Shown: positions 6,791-43,991, counted from the first letter of the stretch. The stretch: 64,000 bases of DNA from Alphaproteobacteria bacterium (GCA_038102935.1 JAYNYG010000006.1:38748-102747), one strand, 5' to 3'. Translations and numbers: made by a program. Notes: a model not told the origin generated them from the sequence alone.

Positions 6791-6812
6791 GGCGGGTTTG
6801 CTGGAAAGGCGC

Positions 6813-11401: not shown

Positions 11402-11402
11402 C

Positions 11403-12848: not shown

Positions 12849-12866
12849 TGCTTATAAGGAATACAG

Positions 12867-13733
12867 ATGCCTGATGCTGTTAACGTGCGGCTTGCCGCCA
12901 CTGTGATTCTGGCGCGTGACGCTGGTGATTCCATGGAGCTCTTCATGGTCGTTCGCCATCATCAGATCGACTTTGCCTCTGGCGCGCTGGTTTTCCCGGG
13001 CGGGTCGGCGACAACGAGTGACCGGGACCCGCGTATTCGCGGTCTATCGGACGGCGCTGAGGGGCTTAACGAGGATACGTTGGCGGCGAATGTGGCGGCG
13101 ATCCGGGAATCCTTCGAAGAATGCGGCGTGCTGTATGCGCGGCCCAATGGCTCAGATGATCTGGTAGATGGCGCACGGGCTGAAGCGCTCGGCGCGAAGT
13201 ACCGTGCGGACTTGGAAGCCGATAAGATTGGGATGGCGGATATTGCTGAGGCGGAAGGCCTGCGCATAGCCGTAGATCGCATGGTGCATTTCGCGCATTG
13301 GATCACACCGCCGCATATGCCCAAGCGTTTCGATACGCATTTTTTCATCGCGGAAGCGCCGATGGACCATGTGTTGGCCCATGACGGCCATGAGAACGTT
13401 GATTCCGTATGGATCACGCCTGTTCAAGCTTGTGAGGATGCAGACGCTGGAACCCGCACCGTCATCTTCCCGACGCGGCTAAACATCGAGAAAGTGGGCC
13501 AAAGCAACAATGTCGGCGCTGCAATCGCCCGTGCCCGCAAGTCTCCAGTGGTTACCGTTCTGCCAGAATCTGAGAAGGTAGAAGGCGGGAGGATCATGCG
13601 CATTCCGGAAGCGGCGGGATACGGAGCCGCAGAGCTGTTCGTCGAAGGTGGATCAGGCAAGGCCGCCCGCATTCGCTACCCCGATGGCACAGAACGCAGC
13701 ACATCCATCGCGATGAAGCCTATCGACGATTAA
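12867..13733 (+). CDS. NUDIX hydrolase
   Basis: 288 aa; AATVILAR, VFPGG...AAIRESFEECG Nudix box, HWITP...RFDTHFF. Confidence 0.88.
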   Translation: MPDAVNVRLAATVILARDAGDSMELFMVVRHHQIDFASGALVFPGGSATTSDRDPRIRGLSDGAEGLNEDTLAANVAAIRESFEECGVLYARPNGSDDLVDGARAEALGAKYRADLEADKIGMADIAEAEGLRIAVDRMVHFAHWITPPHMPKRFDTHFFIAEAPMDHVLAHDGHENVDSVWITPVQACEDADAGTRTVIFPTRLNIEKVGQSNNVGAAIARARKSPVVTVLPESEKVEGGRIMRIPEAAGYGAAELFVEGGSGKAARIRYPDGTERSTSIAMKPIDD

Positions 13734-13736
13734 TTC

Positions 13737-14873
13737 CTAGCCGACATCGAAGTCGAGCAAGGCCGCTAGCCCTTCGCCACCGCCACCCGGTTGGGTGATA
13801 GGTGATTGGCCAATCGAGCCTGCTCTAAGCGTCCCAACAACCGTTAGCTTCGTCATGAACTTTCGCAAAAGCGGGACGGTAAATGTCGCGAGACGGATCG
13901 GCGGCGCCAGCAAGAATATACTGAAAATGCCGAGGACCTGAGCAGCTTCCTCAAGGAAATCAGCGCCCGCTGCGCCAAATGCTGTCGCGAGCAAATAGAT
14001 GCCAAGGGCGAATACGGCCCAGGCAATCGCGATCGCAATTGCGAAGACCACGAGATAGAGGAAGACCATGAATGTCGGCAGGTCTGATTTAAACTCAAGT
14101 CCTGCAATCTGGAGATGCGCAACGGTGCGCCGCACTTCAATCGTCCGGTAAGCGATATAGGAAATGCCGAAAGTGAATGGCAGCAGCAGGTAACAGCCAA
14201 TCCAAAGCCAGGTCAGGTGCTTTCCAGCAAGATTGCAGCGTAGCCTTTGATCACCCATCCAGACGTTGTCGTTGAGATACCTTAGCTGCCGCGCCCGCAG
14301 GAACCCGTAGCCAAACCCTGCCGTCAGCACCACAAGGATATATCCTGAGACAGTGAGCCAGAGATACCGCATGGCTGAACCGCCCTGCGCGCCTCGAACT
14401 CCGCGCCAGAGTGTGCGGGAGAGCCGGTAGCGTCGCGCCTGGAAGGTGCCGAGCGGCATCAAGATCGCCCAAACGATGATGAAAAGGCCAATTTCCCAAA
14501 TAGATGCGTCGCCATCAGAGAAAACGAAGGGCGCGATGCTGGCGATCAGAAACAGCGGGCTGAGGATTGTCACGACGATCATGAAGCTGCGGAACAGCTC
14601 CAACCCATTGCCGGTGTATTCCAGCGGCTCCTTATTGATCTCAATATGGCCCCAGAGGAACTGGCGTACTGCCGCCTTCGCCCAGAACCGATAGACGCCG
14701 CCAGTCGCCATAATGATCAGTGTGAGCTTGCTAAACAGGCGGAGCGCATCACCCTCTGTCCCCGTGAACGCTAGGCCGACGCCGGGCGCCTCAGCGACAG
14801 CGTCATCTGCCGCAACATGCGGTTTCGGGTCCCAGGGACGCCGGCGGGGTTTGGAAACTTCGATATCCGGCAT
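13737..14873 (-). CDS. YjgN (DUF898) family membrane protein
   Basis: 378 aa; LTLIIMATGGVYRFWAK, PLEYTGNGLELF, RRYRLSRTLWRGVR; multiple TM segments. Confidence 0.85.
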   Translation of the reverse strand: MPDIEVSKPRRRPWDPKPHVAADDAVAEAPGVGLAFTGTEGDALRLFSKLTLIIMATGGVYRFWAKAAVRQFLWGHIEINKEPLEYTGNGLELFRSFMIVVTILSPLFLIASIAPFVFSDGDASIWEIGLFIIVWAILMPLGTFQARRYRLSRTLWRGVRGAQGGSAMRYLWLTVSGYILVVLTAGFGYGFLRARQLRYLNDNVWMGDQRLRCNLAGKHLTWLWIGCYLLLPFTFGISYIAYRTIEVRRTVAHLQIAGLEFKSDLPTFMVFLYLVVFAIAIAIAWAVFALGIYLLATAFGAAGADFLEEAAQVLGIFSIFLLAPPIRLATFTVPLLRKFMTKLTVVGTLRAGSIGQSPITQPGGGGEGLAALLDFDVG

Positions 14874-14916
14874 AGAACGCTCTTAGGACAAAGGGTTTTC
14901 AGTAGGATAGCTGCAA

Positions 14917-15780
14917 ATGCTGCGACGCGCTTTCATTTTCGGTATGGGTTTCACGGGTAGCCGGTTCGCGGCGGCGCTTGCGGCGAAAGGCTTTAGCGTT
15001 TCTGGCACGAGCCGGTCTGGCGCGTCCGTCGATGGCGTAGACTGTTATGCCTATGGGCCAGAGGCGCCGCTTCCAGCCATCCTGCCGCCGCTTGATGAAG
15101 CGACGCACGTGCTGCTGTCAATTCCTCCAAGCGGTGAAGGCGATCCTGTGTTGCAGGATTTCGGCGCGCGGTTGGCTGCAAATACATTGCTGCAATGGGT
15201 TGGGTATCTTGGCACAACCGGGGTCTATGGCGACAGGGATGGCGGGCAGGTTGATGAGACTTCCGCGCTTGAGCCGACAGGAGAGCGCGGCGCCCGTCGT
15301 GTCGCTGCTGAGGCCGGGTGGTTGGATCTCTGGAGTGGAAATGGGCTTCCGGTTCACATATTCCGGCTTGCCGGCATCTATGGCCCCGGACGGAACGCTT
15401 TAGAACAAGCCAAGGCGGGGACTGCGCGGCGGCTGATCAAGCCCGGCCACAAATTCAGCCGTATCCACGTAGACGACATCGTCAGCGGTTTGCTTGCGTC
15501 GATGGAGCGGCCAAATCCTGGCGCCGCCTACAACGTTTGCGATGACATGCCGTCCGAATCAGCGGAGGTCGCGCTATATGCGGCGGAGCTGCTTGGGCTG
15601 GAGCCGCCGCCCGCAATCGCGTTCGAAGATGCTGACCTATCCCCGATGGCGCTGAGTTTCTACCGGGACAACAAAACCGTCAGCAACGCACGCATCAAGC
15701 AAGAGCTTGGCGTTAAGCTCCGCTATCCTACATACCGCGAGGGCCTACAGGCGTTGCTGGCGAACTATTCCGCCGGCTGA
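14917..15780 (+). CDS. NAD-dependent epimerase/dehydratase (atypical SDR)
   Basis: 287 aa; IFGMGFTG, YLGTTGVYGD, FRLAGIYGPGRN, FSRIHVDDI. Confidence 0.9.
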   Translation: MLRRAFIFGMGFTGSRFAAALAAKGFSVSGTSRSGASVDGVDCYAYGPEAPLPAILPPLDEATHVLLSIPPSGEGDPVLQDFGARLAANTLLQWVGYLGTTGVYGDRDGGQVDETSALEPTGERGARRVAAEAGWLDLWSGNGLPVHIFRLAGIYGPGRNALEQAKAGTARRLIKPGHKFSRIHVDDIVSGLLASMERPNPGAAYNVCDDMPSESAEVALYAAELLGLEPPPAIAFEDADLSPMALSFYRDNKTVSNARIKQELGVKLRYPTYREGLQALLANYSAG

Positions 15781-16982
15781 GGCTCAGGGACCATATTCTG
15801 CTCGCCTGCCGCCTGCTTTGGTAAGATGAGCGCGGCTGACACAATCAGACAGGCTGCGGCCGCCAAAATCAGCAAAATGGTCTCAAAGCCATCCGCATCA
15901 GTCGGCGAGCGGTCGAGGACATATGATGCGAATGGCAGCACGCCAGCGCCAATCGTCAGGTTCAGCATGAACTTGATCGATAGGACCTTCGCTCGCCATT
16001 TATCGGGCACATAGCGGGAGAGCACCGCGTCTGTGATCGGGATCTGGCCGAAAACGGCGGCCATTGCCAGAAATGCGACCAGGAACAGCGCCCAATCCAC
16101 CTGGAAAGCCATGGCGAAGATGATGACGGGTTGCAGCGCTGCAATCGTCACCAGGATTGGCTTGATTGGCCGGTTATCAATCACTTTGCCAACCGCAACC
16201 TGGGCAAACGCGGCTGTGGCATACACGGCGCCAGCCAGATAGCCAGTCATTGCGACATCTGTTGTGATGCCGTTCAGCTTCACTTCGAACAAGCGGGGTA
16301 GCAGGAAGATTAAAGCGCCGAACACGAAGCCGCCGCCCATCGTAACCAATCCCAAACTGATGAGCGCGCGCTTCCATCCTGGCGTCATGCCGACCATCGC
16401 CTTTTCCCGCGCGCTGGCGGGCGGGGCAGCTGCTTTGCCAGCGCGCACGAAACGCCAGAAGGCGAGGCCGATCAGGATGGAGACCACGCCCGGCACAAGG
16501 AATCCAAGCCGCCAATCGTAATGAGCCAGGAAAAAGCCTGTCAGAAACGGCGCCGCTGCAACGCCCATATTGCCCCAAACCCCGTTCACGCCGAGCCGCC
16601 AACCCACGTTGCCGCCGCCTTGGATCACCATCGTGATGCCGACTGGATGATAGATGGAGGCGAAAATTCCAATCAGCGCTAGGCCAATGCCAAGCAACAG
16701 TGGCGTGGTTGCAAAGCTCGCCAGGATGGAGGCGACGCCGATGCCGATGAAAAAGATGATGATCATCGGGTTCCGGCCATACTTGTCTGCCAATTGCGCG
16801 GATACCGGCGCCGCCGCGCCAAACAGAACGGCAGCGGGCGTGCCGTAGACGATCATGTCGTCATAGCTGAGACCCCAGGCTTTCCCCGCTTCATAGGCCG
16901 CCTTTGCAAAGATCAGCATGAACAAGTGATCGACAAAATGGCCAAGGTTCAGGAAGAGCAAACGAAGGCGGCTGGCGCTCAT
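15765..16982 (-). CDS. MFS transporter
   Basis: 405 aa; about 12 hydrophobic helices, LADKYGR loop motif, IYHPVG. Confidence 0.9.
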   Translation of the reverse strand: MSASRLRLLFLNLGHFVDHLFMLIFAKAAYEAGKAWGLSYDDMIVYGTPAAVLFGAAAPVSAQLADKYGRNPMIIIFFIGIGVASILASFATTPLLLGIGLALIGIFASIYHPVGITMVIQGGGNVGWRLGVNGVWGNMGVAAAPFLTGFFLAHYDWRLGFLVPGVVSILIGLAFWRFVRAGKAAAPPASAREKAMVGMTPGWKRALISLGLVTMGGGFVFGALIFLLPRLFEVKLNGITTDVAMTGYLAGAVYATAAFAQVAVGKVIDNRPIKPILVTIAALQPVIIFAMAFQVDWALFLVAFLAMAAVFGQIPITDAVLSRYVPDKWRAKVLSIKFMLNLTIGAGVLPFASYVLDRSPTDADGFETILLILAAAACLIVSAALILPKQAAGEQNMVPEPQPAE

Positions 16983-34324: not shown

Positions 34325-35488
34325 TTATCGTAAGCCAAGACCGCGGGCGATAATGCCGCGGAGCACCTCGCGCGTGCCGCCTTGAATGGTGAGTTTGGGC
34401 GCGATGTGCGTCGTATAGCGCATTACATCTTCATAGGCCGTATCATTTGGGGAGGGTGCGCGCACGCCGTCTGGCGCTATGAGGCGCATCCGGTTAGGCA
34501 ACGCCTGCTCCCAGTTGGTGCCAAGGTCCTTAACAACCGCAGCTTCCGTCATGGGCGTCTCGCCCGCCTGCAGCATCCCAGCGACAGAGGCTGACATGCG
34601 CCGGAGCGTCATCAGATGCGCCACATCCCGGCCAAGTGTTTCGGCAGTGCGATCATCTGGGATTGGTCCAGAGATGCGGATGCCAGCATTGAGCGCAAAA
34701 ATGGTTTCAAGCCAGCGATCCGGGCCGGAGCGTTCATAGGCCAACTCGTCGGTCGCTTGCTTCCAGGCCTCATCGGGCCTGCCGATGACATGCGCCTCCG
34801 GCACGAAGGCGTCATCGAAATGCACCTCGTTGAAATCATGATGGCCGGCGAGGTTGATGATCGGGCGCACGGTAATGCCTGGCGTATCCATCTTGATCAG
34901 AAACTGCGTCAGGCCATGACGCCGGTTCTCTGCGGTCGGCTGCGATGTTCTGATTAGCCCGATCATGTAATGCGTGCGATGGGCGTTGGATGTCCAGATT
35001 TTCGTCCCGGCGACCTTGTAGCCGCCATCGACTTTCGTTGCTTTGGTCGATGCAGCGAACAGGTCAGAGCCGGAGTTTGGTTCTGACAAACCAATGCAGA
35101 AATATGTCTCGCCGCGCACAATCTCTGGGATCAGCTTTCGCTTGATCTGTTCCTGGCCAAATTTCAGCAATACCGGGCCGGATTGCCTGTCCGCCACCCA
35201 ATGTGCACGAACCGGGGCGCCATGGGCCAAGAATTCTTCCGTCAGCACGTAGCGTTCGATCTGCGTCCTACCGTGGCCGCCGTATTCCTTAGGCCAAGTC
35301 AGGCCGATCCAGCCTTTAGCGCCAATCTTACGGCTGAATTCCGGGCTGAAGTTAGACGCCATATCACCAGAGCCGGGGGTGAATGTTCCAGCATCAATTT
35401 CTGCCCGAAGGAACGCGCGCACTTCTTGCCGGAGCGCTTCAGCTTCCGGTGGGAATTGCATAGGATCAAAGCGGAATGTGTAGGACAT
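34325..35488 (-). CDS. Acyl-CoA dehydrogenase family protein
   Basis: WPKEYGG, FCIGLSEPNSGSDL, GTKIWTS, FNEVHFDD, ELAYERSG, TIQGGTREVLR; start taken as ATG 35488. Confidence 0.92.
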   Translation of the reverse strand: MSYTFRFDPMQFPPEAEALRQEVRAFLRAEIDAGTFTPGSGDMASNFSPEFSRKIGAKGWIGLTWPKEYGGHGRTQIERYVLTEEFLAHGAPVRAHWVADRQSGPVLLKFGQEQIKRKLIPEIVRGETYFCIGLSEPNSGSDLFAASTKATKVDGGYKVAGTKIWTSNAHRTHYMIGLIRTSQPTAENRRHGLTQFLIKMDTPGITVRPIINLAGHHDFNEVHFDDAFVPEAHVIGRPDEAWKQATDELAYERSGPDRWLETIFALNAGIRISGPIPDDRTAETLGRDVAHLMTLRRMSASVAGMLQAGETPMTEAAVVKDLGTNWEQALPNRMRLIAPDGVRAPSPNDTAYEDVMRYTTHIAPKLTIQGGTREVLRGIIARGLGLR

Positions 35489-35499
35489 GATCGAATGCC

Positions 35500-36531
35500 T
35501 TAGCCTTTCCGACCCGCGTCGAACCCAGCGAAGAATGAAGTTAGATTGGGGCCAAGACCGTCGCAATCGTAGCCGCCCTCTTGAACAAGCAGCGTTGGCA
35601 AGCCAAGCGCGGCTATGCGTTTCGCCACTTCGCCAAACCCGCTCGTGGTGACTCTCAGATAGCCAATCGGGTCATTCTCAAATGCGTCGAAGCCAAGGCT
35701 GATCAGCAATGCGCCCGGATTATGCGCCCGGATTGCTTCAAACGCCTTGTCGAGCGACCCCATGAACACATCGTCACCGCTGTTCTGCGCCATTGGGAAA
35801 TTGGCCGTTTTACCTGCTCCAGCGCCTTCGCCTGTTTCGTCGATATAGCCTGCGAAGAACGGGAAATAGTCCGAAGGATCGCCATGGAGCGATGCGAACA
35901 GCACATCGCCACGATCATAGAAAATGCCCTGGGTGCCATTCCCGTGATGCACATCGACATCAAGGATCGCCAGTTTATCCCACTTGCTCCGCATATGCTG
36001 TGCGGCGATGGCGATGTTGTTCAGATAGCAGAACCCGCCTGCCAAATCCTGAAAGGCATGATGCCCCGGCGGCCGGCAGAGCGCATAGGCTTCATTGGCG
36101 CCCGCCATTACAGCGCCTGCCGCCGTTAACGCGATGTCAGCGGATGTCTTGGCCGCACTCCAAGTCCCCTCAGCGATTGGCGCTGAGTTCGTCGCCATGT
36201 AGTACCCGGCCTGTCCCATGATGCTAGTCGGCTTGCCTGTCATGCGGCGGTTGGGCTGAGCGTAGGGGTGAACATAGGGCGTTGGATCAGGCAGGGCCTG
36301 CCAGCGCGGCCAAGCGGATTCAAGGAAAGCCAAATAATCAGTGTCATGGATCGCATCAATCGGCGCCATGCCGTGGGCCGTTGGCGATTGCAGATCATGC
36401 CCGCCAGCCTTCGCCGCCTTCAGCAATTCCTCTGCCCTGCGCGCGATCTCGACATGAGGGACATGGCGGCCGCGGCTGATGATTTCAGCCGGTTGATGTT
36501 GCAGATGGGCGTCGTCATGTACGACCAGCAT
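35500..36531 (-). CDS. Histone deacetylase family protein (acetylpolyamine amidohydrolase-like)
   Basis: RPPGHHA, GFCYLNN, LDVDVHHGNGTQ, SLHG, SLGFD, QEGGY; start taken as ATG 36531. Confidence 0.92.
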   Translation of the reverse strand: MLVVHDDAHLQHQPAEIISRGRHVPHVEIARRAEELLKAAKAGGHDLQSPTAHGMAPIDAIHDTDYLAFLESAWPRWQALPDPTPYVHPYAQPNRRMTGKPTSIMGQAGYYMATNSAPIAEGTWSAAKTSADIALTAAGAVMAGANEAYALCRPPGHHAFQDLAGGFCYLNNIAIAAQHMRSKWDKLAILDVDVHHGNGTQGIFYDRGDVLFASLHGDPSDYFPFFAGYIDETGEGAGAGKTANFPMAQNSGDDVFMGSLDKAFEAIRAHNPGALLISLGFDAFENDPIGYLRVTTSGFGEVAKRIAALGLPTLLVQEGGYDCDGLGPNLTSFFAGFDAGRKG

Positions 36532-38125: not shown

Positions 38126-41050
38126 CTAAGCCGCCCGAACCCGGCAGAGCAGCGATTTCAAGTTCGTTTGCTCAGAGATCGGGCAGCGTTGATGTTTATC
38201 CGTCAGGTCATTGACGGGCCGCCAAGGATTGAATGGCTGCCGTTCGCCCCAGCCAATGGGCATGAAGATCGCGCGTTCGCGGATACCGTTCGTGATCCAG
38301 GCGCGAGCGTCCGCTTCGCCGTGGGCGGTCTCGACGGTTACGCGAGCGCCATCGGTGATGCCAAGGCGTTTGGCGGTTGAAGGATGCATCTGGGCATAGA
38401 GGTCCGGCCACATTTCCTGGGCCTGCCAGGAGTAATGCGTCCAGGAATGGAAATGAGGAGCGGGCGCGCGGCCTGTCACCAATTCCATGTCAAAGCCTTG
38501 GGCGCGGAGGTCTGCCGCGGGTTGTGCGTCTTCCGGCGGAATGATCCGCGCGCGGGAGGCATAGGCGGCGCCGTTCAGGAATGGGCTTTTAATGCCTTCC
38601 GTCCAATCGGGGTCCAGCATTTCCAGATGCGCCATGTCGAACAGGCTTTCCCTCTCGCTGTAGAATTCCGGCAGCGCTGACAGGCCGTAGCCCTTGAACT
38701 TGGCGTCCATTTCTTCAGTGAAGAATTCTAGCTTGCCGCTCTGGGAAGGGAAACGGTGGCCTTCCGGCTTGCCGGGGGCGGTGGAGCCTTCCAGGTAAAG
38801 CGTGTTCAGCTCTTCCGCTTCCTCTGACGCGACCGGGAAGCGAACCCAACGATAGGGCCTGGAATGCAGGCGCTTTTGAGTGACGCCGCGCATCTGGACA
38901 TGGTCGATCATCGCTTCATCCCAGAAGCGCGATGAGTCTTTCCATTGCTCTTTCATCACATCGCCGTAGCCGAACCGCTTGCCAAGTTCGATCCAAATCC
39001 AACCGTCCGGTTTAGCGACGCCTGGCGGATCGATCATTTTGTCGATCCACACAACGCGTCGGTCTTCACAGGCGCGTCCAACTTCGCCTTTCTCGATGCC
39101 TGTAGCGGCGGGCAGTACGTAATCAGCGTAAGCGCTGGTTTCATTCGGGAAGATGTCGATATGGACCAGCAGGTCGAGCGCATTGATGCCGTCGCGGGTT
39201 TCGGCTTGGTCCGGCCAGAGCGACATCGGGTTGTTACAGGCGATCAAGGCCTTGAGCGCATATGGTTGGGCAGTGCGCATCGCGTCGACCCACCCGGTTG
39301 GACTTGTGCGGACGCGGGGTTTGTTCAGCGGTGCGATCCTGTCCGCTGGTGCGTTGGCTTCGGCGGGAACGGATGCTGACATGTTGAAGTAGGCCCCGCC
39401 GCGCCGACCCCAATTCCCTGTGATCGCCGCCACAAACATAATGGCACGGTTGGACTGCACCGAGTTCACATGCTGGTTGATGCCACGGCTGCCGAAGATA
39501 ACGCAGCCATCGGCTTGCGCGATTTCTTCCGCCAGGCCCTTGATCGCTTCAACGGAAAGGTCGGTGATGGGGGCGGCCCACTCCGGCGTGTAGCCCATGA
39601 CGCTGATGAAATCGCGCCATTCTTTCCAGCCTGTCACCCAGTTTTCGCAGAAATCAGAATCATGTAAATTTTCGGCAAATATGTGCTGGGCGATGGCCAG
39701 CGACAGCGCCATGTCGCCGCCTGGGCGGATGGGCAAATGCAGATCCGATTTAGACGCCGTGACCGTCATCCTCGGATCAATCGTTATCATCCGCGCGCGG
39801 TTTTTGAGCCGCCAATCGTTGATCATGCCGAAATGGACAGGCCGCGTTTCCGCCTGATTGTCGCCCAAGTAGATGTAGAGTTCGGCTGAACCCAGGTCTT
39901 CCTCAGTATAGCTATTGCCGCTGCCACCAGCGCCCTGGATCATGTTGTATGCGACGTTTTTACCGAAGGAGCAGTACGGCTCCGTCGTTTCAAAGTTCGG
40001 CGTGCCCCAAAGCTGGCGGAACAGGCGGATATAGCCCTTGTTCGTCAGCGTGCCGGTGCGTGTTCCAGAGAAAATGGCCAGTGCTTCCGGCCCAAAATCT
40101 TCGCGGATGGCGCTCAGCTTCTCGGCGATCTCGTCCAGCGCCTGATCCCAGGAGATCGGCTCAAACACATTCTCGCCGCGCTTACCGACGCGTTTTAGCG
40201 GTTGGGTCAGGCGTTCCTTGGAATTGTAGAGCTGCAACGAGAATTGCGACTTCGGGCAAACCCGACCTTCCAGCATCGGGTCCGCTTCGTTGCCCGTTAC
40301 TCTTACGAGCTTATCGCCCTTGAAATGGAAGTTCGTAGTGCAGCAATTGAAGCAAATATTGCAACCGCCTGGCTCGACCCTGTCCGCCAAGCGTTCTTCG
40401 CGGGGCAGGCCAAAGGGGAAGGCCGTCGCGGTCTCTGGATCAGGTCTGCCATCGTCCGAAACGGCTGGCGTGGACTGCTCGAATACATCAAAGGCAGAAG
40501 CGTCGCGGATGATCCGGTCGAGGTAGATCGTTGCAGGCGCCAAAAGGTAGGGATCATTGTCGACGGCTTTCCGTCCTTCGGCTTCTGCCCCCGCCAGCAT
40601 CTCATCACGTTCACCGAACGTAATCGCCTTGCCAGGGCATACACTGGCGCAAGCGGTTGTGGCCGCACCGTCAGCCCTCCGATCCTGGCAGAGATCGCAT
40701 TTCACGGCATGATGGCCGCCAGCGTCATAGCCCATGGCGCCATAAGGGCAGGCGGCGACGCACTCGCCGCAACCAACGCAGCTTTCCTCCATTACGGAGA
40801 CGATGCCGGTTTCAAGGTCTTTGCGGATGGCTTTGGGCTCAACCGGGCAGGCGCGGAGACAGGCCGGGCGTTCGCAGTGTTGGCAGGCGAGCTTTAGGAA
40901 ATCGAGCGTCGGGCCATTGTCGCCACCGAGCCATACGACGCGGTTACGGCGTTCGCCAGGGCCAAGGCCGTGCTCTGCCTTGCATGCCGCCTCGCAGCTC
41001 TTGCAGCCAATGCAGCGTTCCAAATCGATCATCAATGCGAGACGGGACAT
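38126..41050 (-). CDS. Fused 4x[4Fe-4S] ferredoxin (DmsB/PsrB-like) + bis-PGD molybdopterin oxidoreductase
   Basis: 974 aa; N-terminal 16-Cys ferredoxin (CIGCKSCEAAC, CQHC..C..CP, CVGCGECVAACP, KCDLC..C..CP); FS0 C230-x2-C233-x3-C237-x27-C265 with K267; GTPNFETTEPYC(360)SFGK; C-terminal Molydop_binding region; no Tat signal. Confidence 0.92.
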   Translation of the reverse strand: MSRLALMIDLERCIGCKSCEAACKAEHGLGPGERRNRVVWLGGDNGPTLDFLKLACQHCERPACLRACPVEPKAIRKDLETGIVSVMEESCVGCGECVAACPYGAMGYDAGGHHAVKCDLCQDRRADGAATTACASVCPGKAITFGERDEMLAGAEAEGRKAVDNDPYLLAPATIYLDRIIRDASAFDVFEQSTPAVSDDGRPDPETATAFPFGLPREERLADRVEPGGCNICFNCCTTNFHFKGDKLVRVTGNEADPMLEGRVCPKSQFSLQLYNSKERLTQPLKRVGKRGENVFEPISWDQALDEIAEKLSAIREDFGPEALAIFSGTRTGTLTNKGYIRLFRQLWGTPNFETTEPYCSFGKNVAYNMIQGAGGSGNSYTEEDLGSAELYIYLGDNQAETRPVHFGMINDWRLKNRARMITIDPRMTVTASKSDLHLPIRPGGDMALSLAIAQHIFAENLHDSDFCENWVTGWKEWRDFISVMGYTPEWAAPITDLSVEAIKGLAEEIAQADGCVIFGSRGINQHVNSVQSNRAIMFVAAITGNWGRRGGAYFNMSASVPAEANAPADRIAPLNKPRVRTSPTGWVDAMRTAQPYALKALIACNNPMSLWPDQAETRDGINALDLLVHIDIFPNETSAYADYVLPAATGIEKGEVGRACEDRRVVWIDKMIDPPGVAKPDGWIWIELGKRFGYGDVMKEQWKDSSRFWDEAMIDHVQMRGVTQKRLHSRPYRWVRFPVASEEAEELNTLYLEGSTAPGKPEGHRFPSQSGKLEFFTEEMDAKFKGYGLSALPEFYSERESLFDMAHLEMLDPDWTEGIKSPFLNGAAYASRARIIPPEDAQPAADLRAQGFDMELVTGRAPAPHFHSWTHYSWQAQEMWPDLYAQMHPSTAKRLGITDGARVTVETAHGEADARAWITNGIRERAIFMPIGWGERQPFNPWRPVNDLTDKHQRCPISEQTNLKSLLCRVRAA

Positions 41051-41056
41051 GACGCT

Positions 41057-41854
41057 CTAAAAATCCCAAGCTGCGAAATGGAGCCAGTAAATATCGCCGC
41101 CGTCAGAGGCATATCCAGCAAACACCATGACGATAACGATATGCGCGAACAGGCCCCCGACGAACGCCAATGCCGCCAGCCGGTGCAGCAAGCGCCAGCG
41201 GGCTTGGATGGGAGGAAGCGCCGCTGCAGCGCCAACGATATGGCTCTCTTCTGCGGCAAGGCGCACATACTGCAACGTTAGCATCGGCGTTCGCAGCCAA
41301 TGGCGGAATTGCGGCGAGAACAGCGCCTCGCTCGCATCCGGGGCAAGCCGTTCGAGTAGGGCATGTTTTTGCGAGATCAGTTCCGCCAGCTTCGCCCGTG
41401 TCGCGGGGTCTGGCTTTGCGAACCCAGCCCGCTTCTGGCCAAATGTTTGGGCCATCATCCTCGCGCCCTGAATGCGGGACCAGACGCCGAGACCGATAAG
41501 CAGAAGCAGCAGCGCGAACAGCAGCGCAGGCGGTTTCATAATTCCACTTGCGCCATGGGCGAACACCAGTCCCGTGCCAATGCTCGCCAGCCAGACATGT
41601 GACTTGAACCCAGCTTTGCCAGGCTTGCCCCGCCGCTTTGCAAGCACGGCCACAAATGATCCCAACAGCAAGACAGCGCCTATAGCGGCGGCGGCCTGCA
41701 GCAATGGTCCGCCTGCCAGACCCCATATACCGTTCAAACTGGTCACCAGAATGAGCGTGAATACGCTGGCCGAAAGTATGCAGGCGAGAATTGTAATAAG
41801 GGCGCGATTTGAGAGATCAGCCGGAGTGTTGGTATTGGTCGATTTGGCTCTCAC
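41057..41854 (-). CDS. 5-TM membrane protein, putative di-heme cytochrome b (ferric reductase/MsrQ-like)
   Basis: 265 aa, GTG start overlapping the tauD stop (GTGA); H86-x13-H100 in TM3 and H224-x13-H238 in TM5. Confidence 0.7.
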   Translation of the reverse strand: MRAKSTNTNTPADLSNRALITILACILSASVFTLILVTSLNGIWGLAGGPLLQAAAAIGAVLLLGSFVAVLAKRRGKPGKAGFKSHVWLASIGTGLVFAHGASGIMKPPALLFALLLLLIGLGVWSRIQGARMMAQTFGQKRAGFAKPDPATRAKLAELISQKHALLERLAPDASEALFSPQFRHWLRTPMLTLQYVRLAAEESHIVGAAAALPPIQARWRLLHRLAALAFVGGLFAHIVIVMVFAGYASDGGDIYWLHFAAWDF

Positions 41855-42684
41855 CGGGGCGTATCGCCCTTTAGCGTCACGCGGTGCATGCGCCGGCGCT
41901 TGCCTGGATAGTCATTCACCGCGAAATGCTGTGTGGTACGGTTATCCCATACGGCGACAGCGCCAGCGCTCCAGCGGAACCGGCAGGTAAATTCTGGCCG
42001 CGTGATGTGATCACAAAGAAAATCGATCAGTGGCTTGCTCTCAGCATCCGTCCAACCTTCGAACCGCGCTGTATGGGACCGGTTCAGGTAAAGCGATTTT
42101 CCGCCGGTTTCAGGGTGGGTGCGAACGATGGGATGGCTGTTGATATGCGTTTTGGCGGCCTCATCCGTTTCCTTCATGCCATCCAGCTTCGCCATGGCCG
42201 CAGCCCTGCCGCCTGCATAGCCATGGTCTGAACTGTTGACGCCACGAACGCCCGCGAGCATCGCCTTCATTCCATCTGATAGCGCTTCATAGGCAGCGCC
42301 CGCATTGGCGAACAGCGTGTCGCCGCCTGCTTGTGGCGTTTCCAACGCATAGAGGATGGTGCCAAGTGCAGGTTGCGCCATGTAGCTGGTGTCGGAATGC
42401 CAGCTTCCGCCAAAGTTTTTGGCGTCGCTTTCCTCTTTCAGAATCTCAATAACTTCCGGCGTACCCGGCAAGCCTGCGATGAAGGGGTAGATATCCGGTT
42501 CACCGAACATTCCCGCCAGCCGGACTTGATCTTTTGGCGCCAGGTTCTGGTCGCGGAAAAAGATAACCTTGTGCTCAAGGAAGGCGTCATGCACAGCCAT
42601 CGCATCGCTGTTGGTGAGTTCCTGGCTTAGATCGATGCCAGAAATCTCTGCACCCAATGCGCCCGCTATCGGCTCTATATGCAT
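41851..42684 (-). CDS. TauD/TfdA family dioxygenase
   Basis: 277 aa; LGAEISGIDL, HKVIFFRDQ, WHSD, GGDT, HPIVRTHPETG, WDNRTTQHFA. Confidence 0.94.
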   Translation of the reverse strand: MHIEPIAGALGAEISGIDLSQELTNSDAMAVHDAFLEHKVIFFRDQNLAPKDQVRLAGMFGEPDIYPFIAGLPGTPEVIEILKEESDAKNFGGSWHSDTSYMAQPALGTILYALETPQAGGDTLFANAGAAYEALSDGMKAMLAGVRGVNSSDHGYAGGRAAAMAKLDGMKETDEAAKTHINSHPIVRTHPETGGKSLYLNRSHTARFEGWTDAESKPLIDFLCDHITRPEFTCRFRWSAGAVAVWDNRTTQHFAVNDYPGKRRRMHRVTLKGDTPR

Positions 42685-42702
42685 GACATTCGGCTCCGAC
42701 TT

Positions 42703-43254
42703 TTAGCGGCGATTCGCTTCTTCGAAGAGCGCCAAATTCTTGTCCACGTCATACGTCTGCTCGGTTAGGTTTTCTGGGTCCCATTCAGAGCGGTGCTCGG
42801 CAAAGAAATCACCGCCATACACGTGAATGGCTCCGGTCAGCCGGTTCAATGGATTGGTGACGGAATGAATGATGTCTGCGCCGAGCGGCGTGACATCGCC
42901 AGCGCCCATGGATTTGGCGCCCGCCGCTTCCAACCCGCAATCCCCGTCTTCAATGCGCCGCCAGAAAATATTGTCTTCGCGGCCCGTATAGATACCGATC
43001 ACCGCCCACATATTATGATTATGCGGCATCAACGTCATGCGCTTGCCCCAAATCAGGTTCAGAATTGTCAGGTCCGGGCGGTGGCAAAGTTTGTTGACCC
43101 CAGCCGCGACGGGCTCACCGATCGTGTTGATCAGCGCCGTCGGGTCAGAAACTGCCCGCTCGACGATAGGGCGGACGGTCTTGTGGGTTGGGTCAGCTTT
43201 GACGGCGGCGGCGCAATCGTCAATGAAGCGGTCCAGATCAAACATTCGGGACAT
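42703..43254 (-). CDS. Cysteine/thiol dioxygenase-like cupin
   Basis: 183 aa; P-H78-N-H80...I-H130-SV.N (3-His triad) and AI-H144-V-Y146-GG outer-sphere motif as in CDO/MDO; true start may be 43245. Confidence 0.78.
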   Translation of the reverse strand: MSRMFDLDRFIDDCAAAVKADPTHKTVRPIVERAVSDPTALINTIGEPVAAGVNKLCHRPDLTILNLIWGKRMTLMPHNHNMWAVIGIYTGREDNIFWRRIEDGDCGLEAAGAKSMGAGDVTPLGADIIHSVTNPLNRLTGAIHVYGGDFFAEHRSEWDPENLTEQTYDVDKNLALFEEANRR

Positions 43255-43297
43255 CCTTTCAGGCGGAGCGGGATTATGTGGAATAAAAGTCTCACAG

Positions 43298-43315
43298 TTG
43301 ACTGATATCCGTCAA
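43298..43315. promoter_or_regulatory. Inverted repeat TTGAC-N8-GTCAA upstream of the cupin-tauD-cytb-Mo operon (candidate operator or -35)
   Basis: TTGACTGATATCCGTCAA in the 86-bp alkA-cupin gap; on the minus strand it also reads TTGACG. Confidence 0.35.
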
Positions 43316-43340
43316 TTCGTCCGCGCCTGAAACTAATTCA

Positions 43341-43991
43341 TCATTGCGGCATGGTGCGATAATAGTTCCAGAGCAGTATCGCTGCTGCACCCCGCCACGG
43401 TCGCCATTCATCTGCGATCAAAGAGGCTTCCTTGAAGCTCGGCTTCTCGGCCAAACCACGGATGCGCCCCGCCGCCGCGACGAGCGCGATATCGGCTGCT
43501 GGCCAAACATCGGGCCGACCGAGGGCAAAGATCAAATAGACTTCCGCCGTCCAGCGCCCAATGCCACGCAGGGCCGTCAGTGTTTCGATCGCATCTTCAT
43601 CCGGCATCCGCGCGATGGCGTCAAAATTTAGGGCGCCCGAGACTTCGGCTTCCGCGAGGCCTATCGCGTATTCGGTCTTTCGGCCTGAGAATCCGATTGA
43701 CCGGGCGCCATCATAGCCAAGCTCCAAGAATGCGGGCGCGGTTACGGGCGCGCCCGTCTTGGCTTCTATCCGCCCCCATACTGTACGCGCTGCAGCGGCT
43801 GAAATTTGCTGCGCGCACACGGCCCGCAGCAATGTCGGAAACCCAGGGTCCCGCAGTGCAATTGGCGGCACGCCTGCTTCATTGATGATTGCCGCCATGC
43901 CAGGGTCCCGTGCGGCTAGTTCCCGCACGCCTTTGCGGAAGCGACGAACGGCGCCTTCAGGCGAAATGGCTCTAACGGTCTTTTGCGGCAT
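43341..43991 (-). CDS. alkA: DNA-3-methyladenine glycosylase II family (AlkA-like)
   Basis: 216 aa; QQIS, HhH LRGIGRWTAE, GRPDVWPAAD, WRPWRG. Confidence 0.88.
   Translation of the reverse strand: MPQKTVRAISPEGAVRRFRKGVRELAARDPGMAAIINEAGVPPIALRDPGFPTLLRAVCAQQISAAAARTVWGRIEAKTGAPVTAPAFLELGYDGARSIGFSGRKTEYAIGLAEAEVSGALNFDAIARMPDEDAIETLTALRGIGRWTAEVYLIFALGRPDVWPAADIALVAAAGRIRGLAEKPSFKEASLIADEWRPWRGAAAILLWNYYRTMPQ

What the first reader, a model, noticed from the sequence alone, without database searches (positions are those of the whole stretch)
38126..43254. Top candidate: four-gene thiol dioxygenase / TauD / cytochrome b / Fe-S-molybdoenzyme operon, a possible thiol -> sulfinate -> sulfonate -> sulfite pathway
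Seen: four minus-strand genes with gaps of 18, -4 and 6 bp, bounded by an 86-bp upstream gap and a convergent SDR. They encode a CDO/MDO-like cupin, TauD, a His-x13-His membrane protein and a Tat-less Fe-S/Mo fusion. Known: thiol dioxygenases make sulfinates; TauD cleaves sulfonates to sulfite; Cys-ligated Psr/Phs/Soe-clade Mo enzymes do sulfur oxo-transfer. Inference A: the Mo enzyme supplies the missing sulfinate -> sulfonate oxidation (e.g. hypotaurine -> taurine; as I recall, EC 1.8.1.3 was historically described as a molybdohemoprotein) and passes electrons via the cytochrome b to quinone. Inference B: it oxidises the sulfite released by TauD, as a SoeABC analog. I know of no described operon with this composition.
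Basis: partly seen in the sequence, partly recalled or inferred. Interest (0 to 1): 0.85.

Follow-up and report, generated by a model that had tools for sequence, protein, structure and literature searches.

The report
Organosulfur oxygenases joined to orphan molybdoenzyme
Four tightly packed genes join two oxygen-dependent enzymes that probably act on sulfur compounds to a widespread, unstudied membrane-bound molybdenum enzyme; that enzyme most likely oxidises the sulfite (or a sulfinate) they produce, but no experiment has tested this.

Summary
Four minus-strand genes (gaps 18, -4 and 6 bp) encode:
- a divergent thiol-dioxygenase-like cupin;
- a TauD-family dioxygenase;
- a five-helix membrane protein with four invariant histidines;
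- a Tat-less fusion of a four-cluster ferredoxin to a Cys-ligated Mo-bisPGD subunit.

The operon is a lineage-specific join of two separable modules.
- **Membrane protein + fusion.** They are adjacent in all 77 related loci with room to see it. An unfused three-gene relative also exists. The clade matches no named family.
- **TauD.** It sits directly upstream in 24 of 80 loci. Two different TauD subfamilies were recruited separately, in two separate clades of the fusion tree.
- **Cupin.** It is linked only in the window's own order. There, cupin-TauD also occurs with the Mo enzyme elsewhere in the genome or absent.
- **TauD pocket.** It lacks the taurine amine-binding residues, so hypotaurine -> taurine is disfavoured.
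- **SoeABC.** Canonical SoeABC is present in this genome and in 38 of 50 genomes with the fusion, so the Mo enzyme does not replace it.

Best reading (about 0.35): a second, cytoplasm-facing sulfite dehydrogenase with a dihaem anchor. Rivals are a sulfinate dehydrogenase, a Nar-like reductase, or no metabolic link.

The parts
43255..43340 (-). Intergenic region upstream of the cupin gene; presumed promoter and ribosome-binding site
   Evidence: The gap is 86 bp (95 bp if translation starts at Met4). AGGA lies 8 nt before the second ATG. The consensus scan found no sigma-70-like site on this strand. The promoter is inferred, not shown.
42703..43254 (-). Cupin of the thiol-dioxygenase (CDO/MDO) superfamily, 183 aa as an ORF, probably 180 aa from Met4 (43245)
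   Evidence: There is no Pfam hit. Sequence and profile searches of solved structures hit almost only 3-mercaptopropionate, mercaptosuccinate and cysteine dioxygenases (best E about 1e-6). Invariant in 10 orthologs: H78, H80, H130 (3-His iron site), H144, Y146 and R155; the Ser of the Ser-His-Tyr triad is Ala142. R155 aligns with P. aeruginosa MDO R168 (own count on the alignment). The family is very large (at least 8000 hits) and unnamed.
41851..42684 (-). TauD/TfdA-family Fe(II)/2-oxoglutarate dioxygenase, 277 aa, of a distinct subfamily (here 'TauD1')
   Evidence: PF02668, E = 2.5e-64. The NCBIfam taurine dioxygenase score is 249 bits, below the 313 cut-off. The iron ligands (H96, D98, H253), the 2-oxoglutarate ligands (T123, R264) and the anion-binding Arg (R268 = E. 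coli R270) are kept. The taurine pocket is replaced (Y66, I69, F91, G92, G155, Y156, H204), and this is invariant in 19 linked orthologs.
41057..41854 (-). Membrane anchor ('MEMB'), 265 aa, five transmembrane helices, probable dihaem cytochrome b
   Evidence: The GTG start overlaps the TauD stop (GTGA). H86/H100 in helix 3 and H224/H238 in helix 5 are 100% conserved. Members match DUF4405 weakly (26 of 30, best E = 8e-8) and Ni_hydr_CYTB (7 of 30). The AlphaFold2 model has mean pLDDT 83.5, with five long helices and a helical loop at residues 128-215. No significant match was found in the PDB by sequence or fold. It is adjacent to the fusion in every related locus with room to see it.
38126..41050 (-). 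Fusion ('MoFS'), 974 aa: four-cluster ferredoxin (B subunit) joined to a Mo-bisPGD catalytic (A) subunit, with no Tat signal
   Evidence: Pfam finds Fer4_11, Molybdop_Fe4S4, Molybdopterin and Molydop_binding. The best solved relative is T. thermophilus PsrA 2vpw (E = 7e-61), then FdhF-type enzymes. No NCBIfam cut-off is reached. More than 1100 homologs were found, the best 120 being 63-94% identical.
40571..41050 (-). Ferredoxin module of the fusion (residues 1-160) with 16 Cys for four [4Fe-4S] clusters
   Evidence: C13, 16, 19, 23, 56, 59, 64, 68, 91, 94, 97, 101, 118, 121, 134 and 138 are all invariant in alignment A1 and were re-read from the DNA. The module matches PsrB/NrfC 2vpw_B at E = 8e-22.
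40256..40363 (-). FS0 cluster motif of the catalytic domain (C230-x2-C233-x3-C237-x27-C265)
   Evidence: PF04879 hit. The four Cys are invariant and verified.
39971..39973 (-). Codon of Cys360, the predicted molybdenum ligand
   Evidence: It aligns with PsrA Cys173 and with the Cys of the genome's own SoeA. It is invariant in A1.

Best explanation
The four genes form one operon (inferred from packing) that joins two evolutionarily separable modules.

**Module 1: the cupin and the TauD1-type dioxygenase.** These are two O2-dependent enzymes that probably oxidise and then desulfurise an anionic, probably carboxylate-bearing, organosulfur compound that is not taurine. The cupin would make a sulfinate from a thiol. 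The TauD-type enzyme would hydroxylate a carbon next to the sulfur group, releasing an aldehyde and sulfite.

**Module 2: the membrane protein and the fusion.** This is a cytoplasm-facing complex iron-sulfur molybdoenzyme. The proposed electron path runs from Mo-bisPGD (Cys360 ligand) through FS0, four [4Fe-4S] clusters and two b haems in the five-helix anchor to quinone, or possibly to a periplasmic acceptor.

The most likely job of module 2 is to oxidise an S(IV) product of such oxygenases, with sulfite -> sulfate favoured. On that reading it is a second sulfite dehydrogenase working beside SoeABC.

**Shown:** gene content, cofactor-binding residues, the invariant pairing, and the recurrent TauD, TauE and CDO neighbours.
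**Inferred:** haem binding, direction of electron flow, every substrate, and co-transcription.
For: 1. **The pair is a unit.** The membrane protein sits next to the fusion in all 77 loci with upstream room. An unfused relative keeps the same partner in the order Mo - membrane homolog - Fe-S (hhalign probability 99.4%, E = 7e-22).
2. **The sulfur link recurs.**
   - A TauD gene lies directly upstream in 24 of 80 loci and in a Chromatiales MAG.
   - On the fusion tree, TauD1-linked loci form one clade (18 of 20 rows) and TauD2-linked loci another (6 of 6), both with 100% SH-aLRT support. Two TauD subfamilies with different pockets were therefore recruited to the same slot.
   - What the two subfamilies would share is the product, sulfite.
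3. **Exporters.** TauE/SafE-family genes follow the fusion after 3-4 bp in one lineage (L025, L044, L047, L089). Two more appear in the neighbour tally.
4. **Other sulfur neighbours.** A PF05995 CDO-type cupin plus a family III CoA-transferase sit in the TauD2-type operons. CoA-transferase, enoyl-CoA hydratase and TauD lie near the pair in L088.
5. **The Mo enzyme is dispensable for module 1.** Cupin-TauD stands alone in G073, G076 and G077. That fits an end-product step better than a middle step.
6. **The pair often stands alone.** It does so in 56 of 80 loci, so its substrate should be a common metabolite.
7. **Precedent.** Thiol-dioxygenase pathways release sulfite that Mo enzymes remove (PMC5373536, PMC6370202).
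8. **Chemistry and location.** The Mo ligand is Cys, the closest solved relative is PsrA, and there is no Tat signal, so the active site faces the cytoplasm.
Against: - A canonical SoeABC is present in this genome and in 38 of 50 genomes with the fusion, so a second sulfite dehydrogenase looks redundant.
- The fusion is only about 30% identical to the genome's own SoeA over 250 residues. Its whole clade, including unfused and Tat-exported relatives, reaches no named family.
- The genome has about 28 TauD-family paralogs, yet only this one is linked to the pair. That hints at a substrate-specific coupling rather than a generic sulfite link.
- By established bioenergetics, a transmembrane dihaem anchor on a cytoplasm-facing enzyme conserves energy only in the reductase direction, as in NarGHI. 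A donor as strong as sulfite would not need it.
- The TauD-like pocket retains only the anion-binding Arg, which could equally hold a carboxylate. Sulfite release by this subfamily is assumed, not shown.
- There is no expression or biochemical evidence.
Confidence: 0.35

Rival explanations
1. First reader's Inference A. The fusion is a sulfinate dehydrogenase (R-SO2- + H2O -> R-SO3- + 2H+ + 2e-). It would link the cupin's sulfinate product to the sulfonate substrate of the TauD-type enzyme, for example 3-mercaptopropionate -> 3-sulfinopropionate -> 3-sulfopropionate -> malonate semialdehyde + sulfite. SoeABC would then oxidise the sulfite.
For: - A thiol-dioxygenase-like cupin and a TauD-type enzyme in one operon leave a formal S(IV) -> S(VI) gap.
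- SoeABC co-occurs in this genome and in 38 of 50 genomes with the fusion, so sulfite is already covered and the fusion is free for another step.
- Only one of about 28 TauD paralogs is linked, and fusion clades track TauD subfamilies, as expected for substrate-level coupling.
- The cupin keeps R155, which aligns with MDO R168, a residue that, from memory, holds the substrate carboxylate. CoA-transferase, enoyl-CoA hydratase and acyl-CoA synthetase neighbours also suggest a carboxylate-bearing substrate.
- Oxygen-atom transfer to a sulfinate is chemically like transfer to sulfite (inference).
Against: - Cupin-TauD occurs without the fusion in G076 (99% complete) and 676 kb from it in G077.
- TauD-membrane-fusion operons lack any cupin in SAR116, Thalassobaculaceae, Chromatiales and Hyphomicrobiales-type loci.
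- 56 of 80 loci have neither dioxygenase.
- The TauD pocket lacks the amine-binding residues, so hypotaurine/taurine is unlikely.
- No Mo-dependent bacterial sulfinate dehydrogenase was found in the literature searched.
Confidence: 0.18
2. The pair is a NarGHI-like, quinol-oxidising reductase. Quinol would be oxidised near the outer haem, and electrons would cross the membrane to a cytoplasmic Mo site that reduces an oxyanion, S-oxide or N-oxide (for example a sulfoxide, TMAO or another oxidised compound). This would generate proton-motive force. The link to TauD would then be indirect.
For: - The architecture matches NarGHI point for point: cytoplasmic Mo subunit with FS0, four further clusters, and a membrane subunit with two His pairs spanning the membrane.
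- By established bioenergetics this layout conserves energy only in the reductase direction.
- The closest solved and named relatives (PsrA, PhsA, Dms/Ynf, Nas/Nap) are mostly reductases.
- The membrane protein weakly resembles the FdnI/HyaC-type cytochrome b families (PMC12727194).
Against: - No nitrate, nitrite, DMSO or TMAO transport or regulatory genes were seen among the neighbours annotated, nor in the top 25 families of the 135-neighbour tally.
- The recurrent neighbours are O2-dependent dioxygenases and TauE exporters, which do not fit anaerobic respiration.
- Cytoplasm-facing Nar-type complexes can also run as dehydrogenases, as Nitrobacter NXR does (established knowledge), so the architecture does not fix the direction.
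Confidence: 0.17
3. The adjacency reflects shared regulation or genomic chance in a few lineages. The Mo enzyme would have a substrate unrelated to sulfur, and the cupin and TauD-like enzymes would act on non-sulfur substrates.
For: - Most loci (56 of 80) show the pair among housekeeping genes such as ThiG, HemN, MutY and methyltransferases.
- The cupin family is huge and usually solitary in unrelated contexts.
- The TauD pocket could bind a carboxylate, since RdpA-type phenoxypropionate dioxygenases score almost as well as TauD.
- The genome carries about 28 TauD paralogs, which raises the chance of adjacency.
Against: - Two different TauD subfamilies occupy the same slot directly upstream of the membrane-protein gene, often with 4-bp overlaps, and are stably inherited in two well-supported fusion clades.
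- Independent TauE and CDO_I associations exist.
- With at most about 0.7% of genes being TauD-family, 24 of 77 immediate-upstream occurrences cannot be chance.
Confidence: 0.12

Closest known systems
SoeABC sulfite:quinone oxidoreductase (Allochromatium vinosum, Ruegeria pomeroyi)
   Same: Both have a cytoplasm-facing, Tat-less, Cys-ligated Mo-bisPGD enzyme with a four-cluster Fe-S partner and a membrane anchor, and both are associated with organosulfonate and thiol catabolism that releases sulfite.
   Different: - Here the Fe-S and Mo subunits are one polypeptide.
- The anchor is a four-His, five-helix protein, not an NrfD/PsrC-type SoeC.
- Identity to this genome's own SoeA is only about 30% over 250 residues.
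- True SoeABC coexists in this genome and in most genomes with the fusion.
Polysulfide/thiosulfate reductases PsrABC (Thermus thermophilus, PDB 2vpw) and PhsABC (Salmonella)
   Same: These are the best solved-structure and NCBIfam matches for both the Mo domain and the ferredoxin module. The Cys ligand aligns. PhsC is, from memory, also a haem b anchor.
   Different: - Psr and Phs are Tat-exported and periplasmic, with separate subunits.
- The PhsA model scores 292 bits against a 694 cut-off.
- PsrC is NrfD-type and has no haem.
NarGHI respiratory nitrate reductase / Nitrobacter-type NXR
   Same: The topology and wiring are the same: cytoplasmic Mo subunit with FS0, four further clusters, and a dihaem b membrane subunit.
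   Different: - NarG uses an Asp ligand and belongs to a different MopB clade.
- The membrane protein is not detectably homologous to NarI.
- The subunits here are fused.
- No nitrogen-metabolism neighbours were seen.
3-mercaptopropionate, mercaptosuccinate and cysteine dioxygenases (PDB 4tlf, 6xb9, 8vni, 4qma)
   Same: The 3-His iron site and the catalytic His-Tyr pair are shared, as is an Arg aligning with MDO R168. These are almost the only solved proteins the cupin profile matches.
   Different: - Matches are only about E = 1e-6, and the Pfam CDO_I model gives no hit.
- The Ser of the Ser-His-Tyr triad is Ala.
- The protein belongs to a separate, very large, unnamed family.
Taurine dioxygenase TauD (E. 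coli, P. putida) and relatives AtsK and RdpA
   Same: Same fold and Pfam family. The iron and 2-oxoglutarate ligands and the anion-binding Arg270 equivalent are conserved.
   Different: - It scores below the NCBIfam taurine dioxygenase cut-off.
- H70, Y73, D94, N95, S158, F159 and F206 are replaced by Y, I, F, G, G, Y and H, so taurine is unlikely to be the substrate.

Membership tests
MopB / DMSO-reductase superfamily (Mo/W-bisPGD) | Molybdopterin and Molydop_binding domains with an N-terminal FS0 [4Fe-4S] motif | tested here: met
   PF00384 (E = 1e-44), PF01568 (3e-23) and PF04879 (5e-5). C230, C233, C237 and C265 are invariant.
SoeABC | Orthology of the catalytic subunit to SoeA | tested here: not met
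   Identity to the genome's own SoeA (so named by a source) is about 30% over 250 residues, 103 bits. The two coexist in 38 of 50 genomes.
SoeABC | Separate SoeB subunit and an NrfD-type, haem-free SoeC anchor | tested here: not met
   The Fe-S module is fused. The anchor has no NrfD hit, only weak DUF4405 and Ni_hydr_CYTB similarity, and four invariant His.
SoeABC | Cytoplasmic orientation (no Tat signal on the Mo or Fe-S subunit) | tested here: met
   The protein begins MSRLALMIDLERCIGCKSCE, that is, with the first ferredoxin motif.
SoeABC | Sulfite:quinone oxidoreductase activity | not testable with these tools
   This needs an enzyme assay.
Psr/Phs polysulfide/thiosulfate reductases | Cys ligand to Mo | tested here: met
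   C360 aligns with PsrA C173.
Psr/Phs polysulfide/thiosulfate reductases | Curated family score (NCBIfam PhsA NF012032, cut-off 694 bits) | tested here: not met
   292 bits. The nearest unfused relatives are also below the cut-off.
Psr/Phs polysulfide/thiosulfate reductases | Tat export to the periplasm | tested here: not met
   There is no twin-arginine leader. More distant relatives (P0283, P0284, 37-39% identical) do carry one.
Thiol dioxygenases (CDO/MDO, Pfam CDO_I PF05995) | 3-His iron site in a cupin fold | tested here: met
   H78, H80 and H130 align with the metal histidines of MDO and are invariant in 10 orthologs.
Thiol dioxygenases (CDO/MDO, Pfam CDO_I PF05995) | Ser-His-Tyr catalytic triad | tested here: inconclusive
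   His144 and Tyr146 are invariant, but the Ser position is Ala142.
Thiol dioxygenases (CDO/MDO, Pfam CDO_I PF05995) | Match to the curated Pfam model | tested here: not met
   No Pfam family at E <= 0.01. Only phmmer/hmmsearch matches at about E = 1e-6 to solved members.
Thiol dioxygenases (CDO/MDO, Pfam CDO_I PF05995) | O2-dependent oxidation of a thiol to a sulfinate | not testable with these tools
   This needs an enzyme assay.
Taurine dioxygenase TauD (EC 1.14.11.17) | TauD/TfdA fold with the 2-His-1-Asp iron site and 2-oxoglutarate ligands | tested here: met
   PF02668, E = 2.5e-64. H96, D98, H253, T123 and R264 are present.
Taurine dioxygenase TauD (EC 1.14.11.17) | Curated equivalog score (NF007104, cut-off 313 bits) | tested here: not met
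   249 bits.
Taurine dioxygenase TauD (EC 1.14.11.17) | Taurine-binding residues: H70 and R270 for the sulfonate; D94, N95 and S158 for the amine (roles from PMC9304159, PMC12951627) | tested here: not met
   Only the R270 equivalent (R268) is kept. H70 is Y, D94 is F, N95 is G and S158 is G, invariant in 19 orthologs.
Dihaem cytochrome b anchors (FdnI/HyaC/PhsC type, Pfam Ni_hydr_CYTB / DUF4405) | Four conserved His on transmembrane helices, placed to ligate two haems | tested here: met
   H86/H100 and H224/H238 are 100% conserved and lie at opposite ends of helices 3 and 5 of the model.
Dihaem cytochrome b anchors (FdnI/HyaC/PhsC type, Pfam Ni_hydr_CYTB / DUF4405) | Significant match to the curated family models or to a solved member | tested here: not met
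   The window protein scores only E = 0.11 to DUF4405. Some homologs reach 8e-8, below gathering score. There is no PDB match by sequence or fold.
Dihaem cytochrome b anchors (FdnI/HyaC/PhsC type, Pfam Ni_hydr_CYTB / DUF4405) | Haem b binding | not testable with these tools
   This needs spectroscopy.

The most novel reading that the evidence does not exclude
The membrane protein and the fusion form a bacterial sulfinate:quinone dehydrogenase, an enzyme activity with no known gene in bacteria. Together with the cupin and the TauD1-type enzyme it would complete a fully oxidative route: thiol -> sulfinate -> sulfonate -> aldehyde + sulfite. The substrate would probably be 3-mercaptopropionate-like compounds derived from DMSP, in abundant marine Alphaproteobacteria.
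Probability: 0.18. Interest if true: 0.85.

Novelty: new variant of a known kind. Interest (0 to 1): 0.6.

Why it matters
The membrane-protein/fusion pair is a widespread respiratory-type molybdoenzyme with no studied member. More than 1100 homologs were found, in SAR116 and other marine Alphaproteobacteria, freshwater and soil Burkholderiales, Gammaproteobacteria and Nitrospinota. Its anchor belongs to no curated family.

This operon, and its TauD-, TauE- and CDO-linked relatives, give the most concrete substrate hypotheses so far: sulfite or an organic sulfinate. A handful of assays could test them.

If the pair oxidises S(IV), it would add a third type of bacterial S(IV) dehydrogenase beside SorAB/SorT and SoeABC. 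In addition, the cupin and the TauD1 subfamily are themselves large families with unknown substrates.

Tried and rejected
- **AlphaFold2 of the 974-aa fusion.** The 14-row alignment gave mean pLDDT 51. The model was not used and no fold search was run on it.
- **Foldseek of the membrane-protein model against the PDB.** Nothing below E = 0.3. A profile search of PDB sequences also found nothing.
- **Reference phylogeny with named SoeA, PsrA, PhsA, TtrA, ArrA, Nap and Nas.** The control genomes of the genome search return no loci and NCBIfam has no SoeA model. Placement therefore rests on HMM and PDB scores and on the representatives search.
- **Acyl-CoA dehydrogenase at 34325-35566 as a 3-sulfinopropionyl-CoA desulfinase.** Rejected. 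Its best solved relatives are steroid-type acyl-CoA dehydrogenases, and no chain named as a desulfinase is among the 12 hits at E <= 1e-20.
- **The convergent SDR as a conserved pathway member.** Rejected. The SDRs near related loci are only about 31% identical.
- **Fusion as a replacement for SoeABC.** Rejected, because the two co-occur.
- **Hypotaurine -> taurine.** Disfavoured by the TauD pocket.
- **Promoter and terminator scan.** Nothing above shuffled expectation.

Full report
**1. Observation**

The ORF list shows four consecutive minus-strand ORFs at exactly the stated coordinates:
- 42703-43254 (183 aa)
- 41851-42684 (277 aa)
- 41057-41854 (265 aa)
- 38126-41050 (974 aa)

The junction sequences show an 18-bp gap with a GGAG before the second gene. 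The third gene starts with a GTGA overlap, and the fourth follows after a 6-bp gap.

Upstream, after 86 bp, lies an HhH-GPD glycosylase gene on the same strand. Downstream, a convergent SDR gene ends 5 bp from the last stop.

One small correction is needed. Orthologs and the called gene in the public collection (P0159, 180 aa) begin at Met4 (43245), which has an AGGA 8 nt upstream. Base composition is uniform across the region. The consensus scans give nothing above shuffled expectation.

**2. The four proteins**

*Cupin.* It has no Pfam or NCBIfam hit.
- As a single sequence and as a 10-ortholog profile, it matches almost only thiol dioxygenases among solved structures: 3-mercaptopropionate, mercaptosuccinate and cysteine dioxygenases, with E about 1e-6.
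- The three metal histidines (H78, H80, H130) and the catalytic His144 and Tyr146 are invariant. So is Arg155, which aligns with Arg168 of the Pseudomonas enzyme.
- The Ser of the Ser-His-Tyr triad is Ala142.
- The family is very large (at least 8000 hits) and is labelled only 'predicted metal-dependent enzyme'.

*TauD-like protein.* It is a clear PF02668 member but scores below the NCBIfam taurine dioxygenase cut-off (249 against 313 bits).
- I mapped the E. coli residues whose roles are described in PMC9304159 and PMC12951627 onto it.
- The iron ligands, the 2-oxoglutarate ligands and the sulfonate-binding Arg270 equivalent are kept.
- His70, Tyr73, Asp94, Asn95, Ser158, Phe159 and Phe206 are Tyr, Ile, Phe, Gly, Gly, Tyr and His. 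This signature is invariant in all 19 orthologs linked to the Mo enzyme.
- Taurine is therefore an unlikely substrate. An anionic substrate without an amine is likely.

*Membrane protein.* It has no family assignment.
- Its four histidines (H86/H100, H224/H238) are 100% conserved in 40 sequences.
- Homologs show sub-threshold similarity to DUF4405 (26 of 30) and Ni_hydr_CYTB (7 of 30). HyaC- and FdoI-type cytochromes b hit these same two models together (table in PMC12727194).
- The AlphaFold2 model (mean pLDDT 83.5) has five long helices and a helical loop at residues 128-215.
- By the positive-inside rule, applied by eye, the loop and the N-terminus face the cytoplasm. This would put one His pair near each membrane face.
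- No solved structure resembles it by sequence or fold.

*Fusion.* It starts directly with a four-cluster ferredoxin, and all 16 Cys are invariant.
- A roughly 65-residue linker leads into a MopB catalytic domain with an FS0 motif.
- Cys360 aligns with the Mo ligand Cys173 of PsrA.
- The best solved relatives are PsrA (E = 7e-61) and FdhF-type enzymes.
- The best NCBIfam models are Fdh-alpha and PhsA, far below their cut-offs.

**3. What is conserved**

A scan of species-representative genomes gave 80 loci.
- The membrane-protein gene directly precedes the fusion in every locus with upstream room (77 of 77).
- A TauD-family gene directly precedes the membrane-protein gene in 24 of 80 loci.
- The cupin is present in only 9 loci, all close relatives.
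- Loci in Burkholderiales, Nitrospinota and some other lineages (56 of 80) have only the pair. In the Burkholderiales loci it sits among housekeeping genes.

A maximum-likelihood tree of the fusion shows three context-specific clades:
- the TauD1-linked loci form one clade (18 of 20 rows);
- the loci linked to a second TauD subfamily (36-38% identical, with a different pocket) form a separate clade (6 of 6);
- a third clade has a TauE/SafE-family gene 3-4 bp after the fusion.

Other contexts add to the sulfur theme:
- The TauD2-type operons also carry a family III CoA-transferase, an IclR regulator and a true PF05995 CDO-type cupin.
- A Chromatiales MAG has TauD-membrane-fusion.
- An Ectothiorhodospiraceae MAG has CoA-transferase, enoyl-CoA hydratase and TauD a few kb from the pair.
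- The top 25 families in a Pfam tally of 135 further dereplicated neighbours include nothing related to nitrate, DMSO or TMAO, and include two more TauE genes.

**4. Within the window's own order (37 genomes, three genera)**

| Feature | Own genus | Second genus | Third genus |
|---|---|---|---|
| Fusion | 10/10 | 0/17 | 8/10 |
| Cupin ortholog | 10/10 | 0/17 | 9/10 |
| SoeA | 10/10 | 2/17 | 8/10 |

- Cupin and TauD1 are adjacent in all 19 genomes that have the cupin ortholog.
- In G073, G076 and G077 an aldo-keto reductase-cupin-TauD module stands alone. In G077 the pair is 676 kb away. G076 (99% complete) has no fusion at all.
- The four-gene operon is therefore a join of two separable modules.
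- Elsewhere the cupin family is usually solitary, in unrelated contexts.

**5. Relation to SoeABC and to other MopB enzymes**

The genome carries a canonical three-gene SoeABC on another contig. Proteins in the 90%-identity cluster of its catalytic subunit are named 'sulfite dehydrogenase (quinone) subunit SoeA' by a source. SoeA orthologs occur in 38 of 50 genomes with the fusion. The fusion is only about 30% identical to this SoeA over 250 residues.

An exhaustive search of 1.84 billion cluster representatives with the Mo domain shows that the fused family collapses to essentially one cluster. Its nearest relatives are unfused:
- P0280 (52% identical) and P0281 (45%) have no Tat signal.
- P0283, P0284, P0288 and P0289 (33-39%) have Tat signals.
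- None reaches a named NCBIfam family.
- P0280 follows a separate 196-aa ferredoxin gene.
- P0281 sits in a Mo - 277 aa - ferredoxin cluster. The 277-aa protein is a homolog of the membrane protein (hhalign probability 99.4%).

The fusion is thus a derived form of a three-subunit enzyme that already used this anchor.

**6. Mechanism**

Shown: the cofactor-binding residues, the cytoplasmic location of the Fe-S and Mo domains, and the invariant pairing with a four-His membrane protein.

Inferred: an electron path from Mo-bisPGD through FS0, four clusters and two b haems to quinone.

The substrate is not shown. The case for an S(IV) substrate rests on:
- repeated, independent association with TauD-type dioxygenases, TauE exporters and CDO-type cupins;
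- the Cys ligand and the Psr/Phs-like sequence neighbourhood;
- the known logic of thiol-dioxygenase pathways, which end in sulfite that Mo enzymes remove (PMC5373536, PMC6370202).

Sulfite is favoured over an organic sulfinate for three reasons:
- two TauD subfamilies with different pockets share only their presumed product;
- the pair often stands alone;
- cupin-TauD works without it.

Four points count against sulfite:
- it would be redundant with SoeABC;
- only one of about 28 TauD paralogs is linked;
- a dihaem anchor would be energetically pointless for so strong a reductant;
- sulfite release by this TauD subfamily is unproven.

I therefore give the sulfite reading 0.35, the sulfinate reading 0.18, a Nar-like reductase 0.17 and no metabolic link 0.12. 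The rest stays open.

**7. Novelty and limits**

Literature searches found no description of the fused enzyme, of its anchor, or of an operon of this composition.

Earlier notes of this scan on related genomes reached similar views. They are leads, not independent evidence.

The enzyme is a new architectural variant of the complex iron-sulfur molybdoenzymes, not a new kind of system.

Three things could not be done:
- the structure prediction of the fusion failed;
- a phylogeny with named references could not be built.

Noticed in passing
window 43243-43254: The cupin ORF's first ATG is probably not the start. Orthologs and the called gene (180 aa) begin at Met4 (43245), which has an AGGA 8 nt upstream.
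   Followed up: yes
window 732-1553 (-) and the whole genome: The genome carries about 28 TauD/TfdA-family paralogs by tblastn. One lies in this window at about 732-1553, 34% identical to the operon's TauD. This is an unusually large expansion, and the substrates are unknown.
   Followed up: partly
window 43341-43991; L008:2557-3096; L054:7377-7895; Burkholderiales loci such as L063:13414-14490: DNA-repair genes recur beside the molybdoenzyme pair in unrelated lineages. An AlkA-like HhH-GPD glycosylase lies just upstream here and in L001/L002. An Ogt methyltransferase gene sits between the membrane-protein gene and the fusion in L008 (Pfam-confirmed), and an unscanned ORF occupies the same slot in L054. 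MutY lies a few kb downstream in Burkholderiales. No explanation was found.
   Followed up: no
L081 (own genome, contig C100) 3730-8304 and 9603-10523: A canonical SoeABC operon lies on another contig. About 1.3 kb upstream of soeA is a 306-aa membrane ORF whose N-terminus looks like a TauE/SafE-type permease. That was judged by eye and not scanned.
   Followed up: partly
L101:3791-6732; L102:2141-5860; proteins P0280-P0289: The fused enzyme has unfused relatives, both cytoplasmic (separate ferredoxin gene, one with a homolog of the membrane protein between the Mo and Fe-S genes) and Tat-exported. The clade therefore records gene fusion and a change of cellular compartment.
   Followed up: partly
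L013-L017, L035 (SAR116 / Thalassobaculaceae loci), about 11000-16700: In four of these loci (L013-L016) the fusion is followed by a second, different TauD paralog; in all six it is followed by Amidohydro_2 gene(s), and where the contig continues by a Rieske ferredoxin. An acyl-CoA synthetase lies divergently upstream in L013-L015 and L017. This is a larger conserved cluster of unknown pathway.
   Followed up: partly
L086 (G073:C32) 6152-8391: One relative has two tandem cupin copies before TauD. It also has several fusion copies or fragments on other contigs.
   Followed up: no
L084:5140-6102, L085:4798-5760, L086:5155-6150: Where cupin-TauD stands alone, an aldo-keto reductase gene directly precedes it. 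It could reduce the aldehyde product of the TauD-type reaction.
   Followed up: partly
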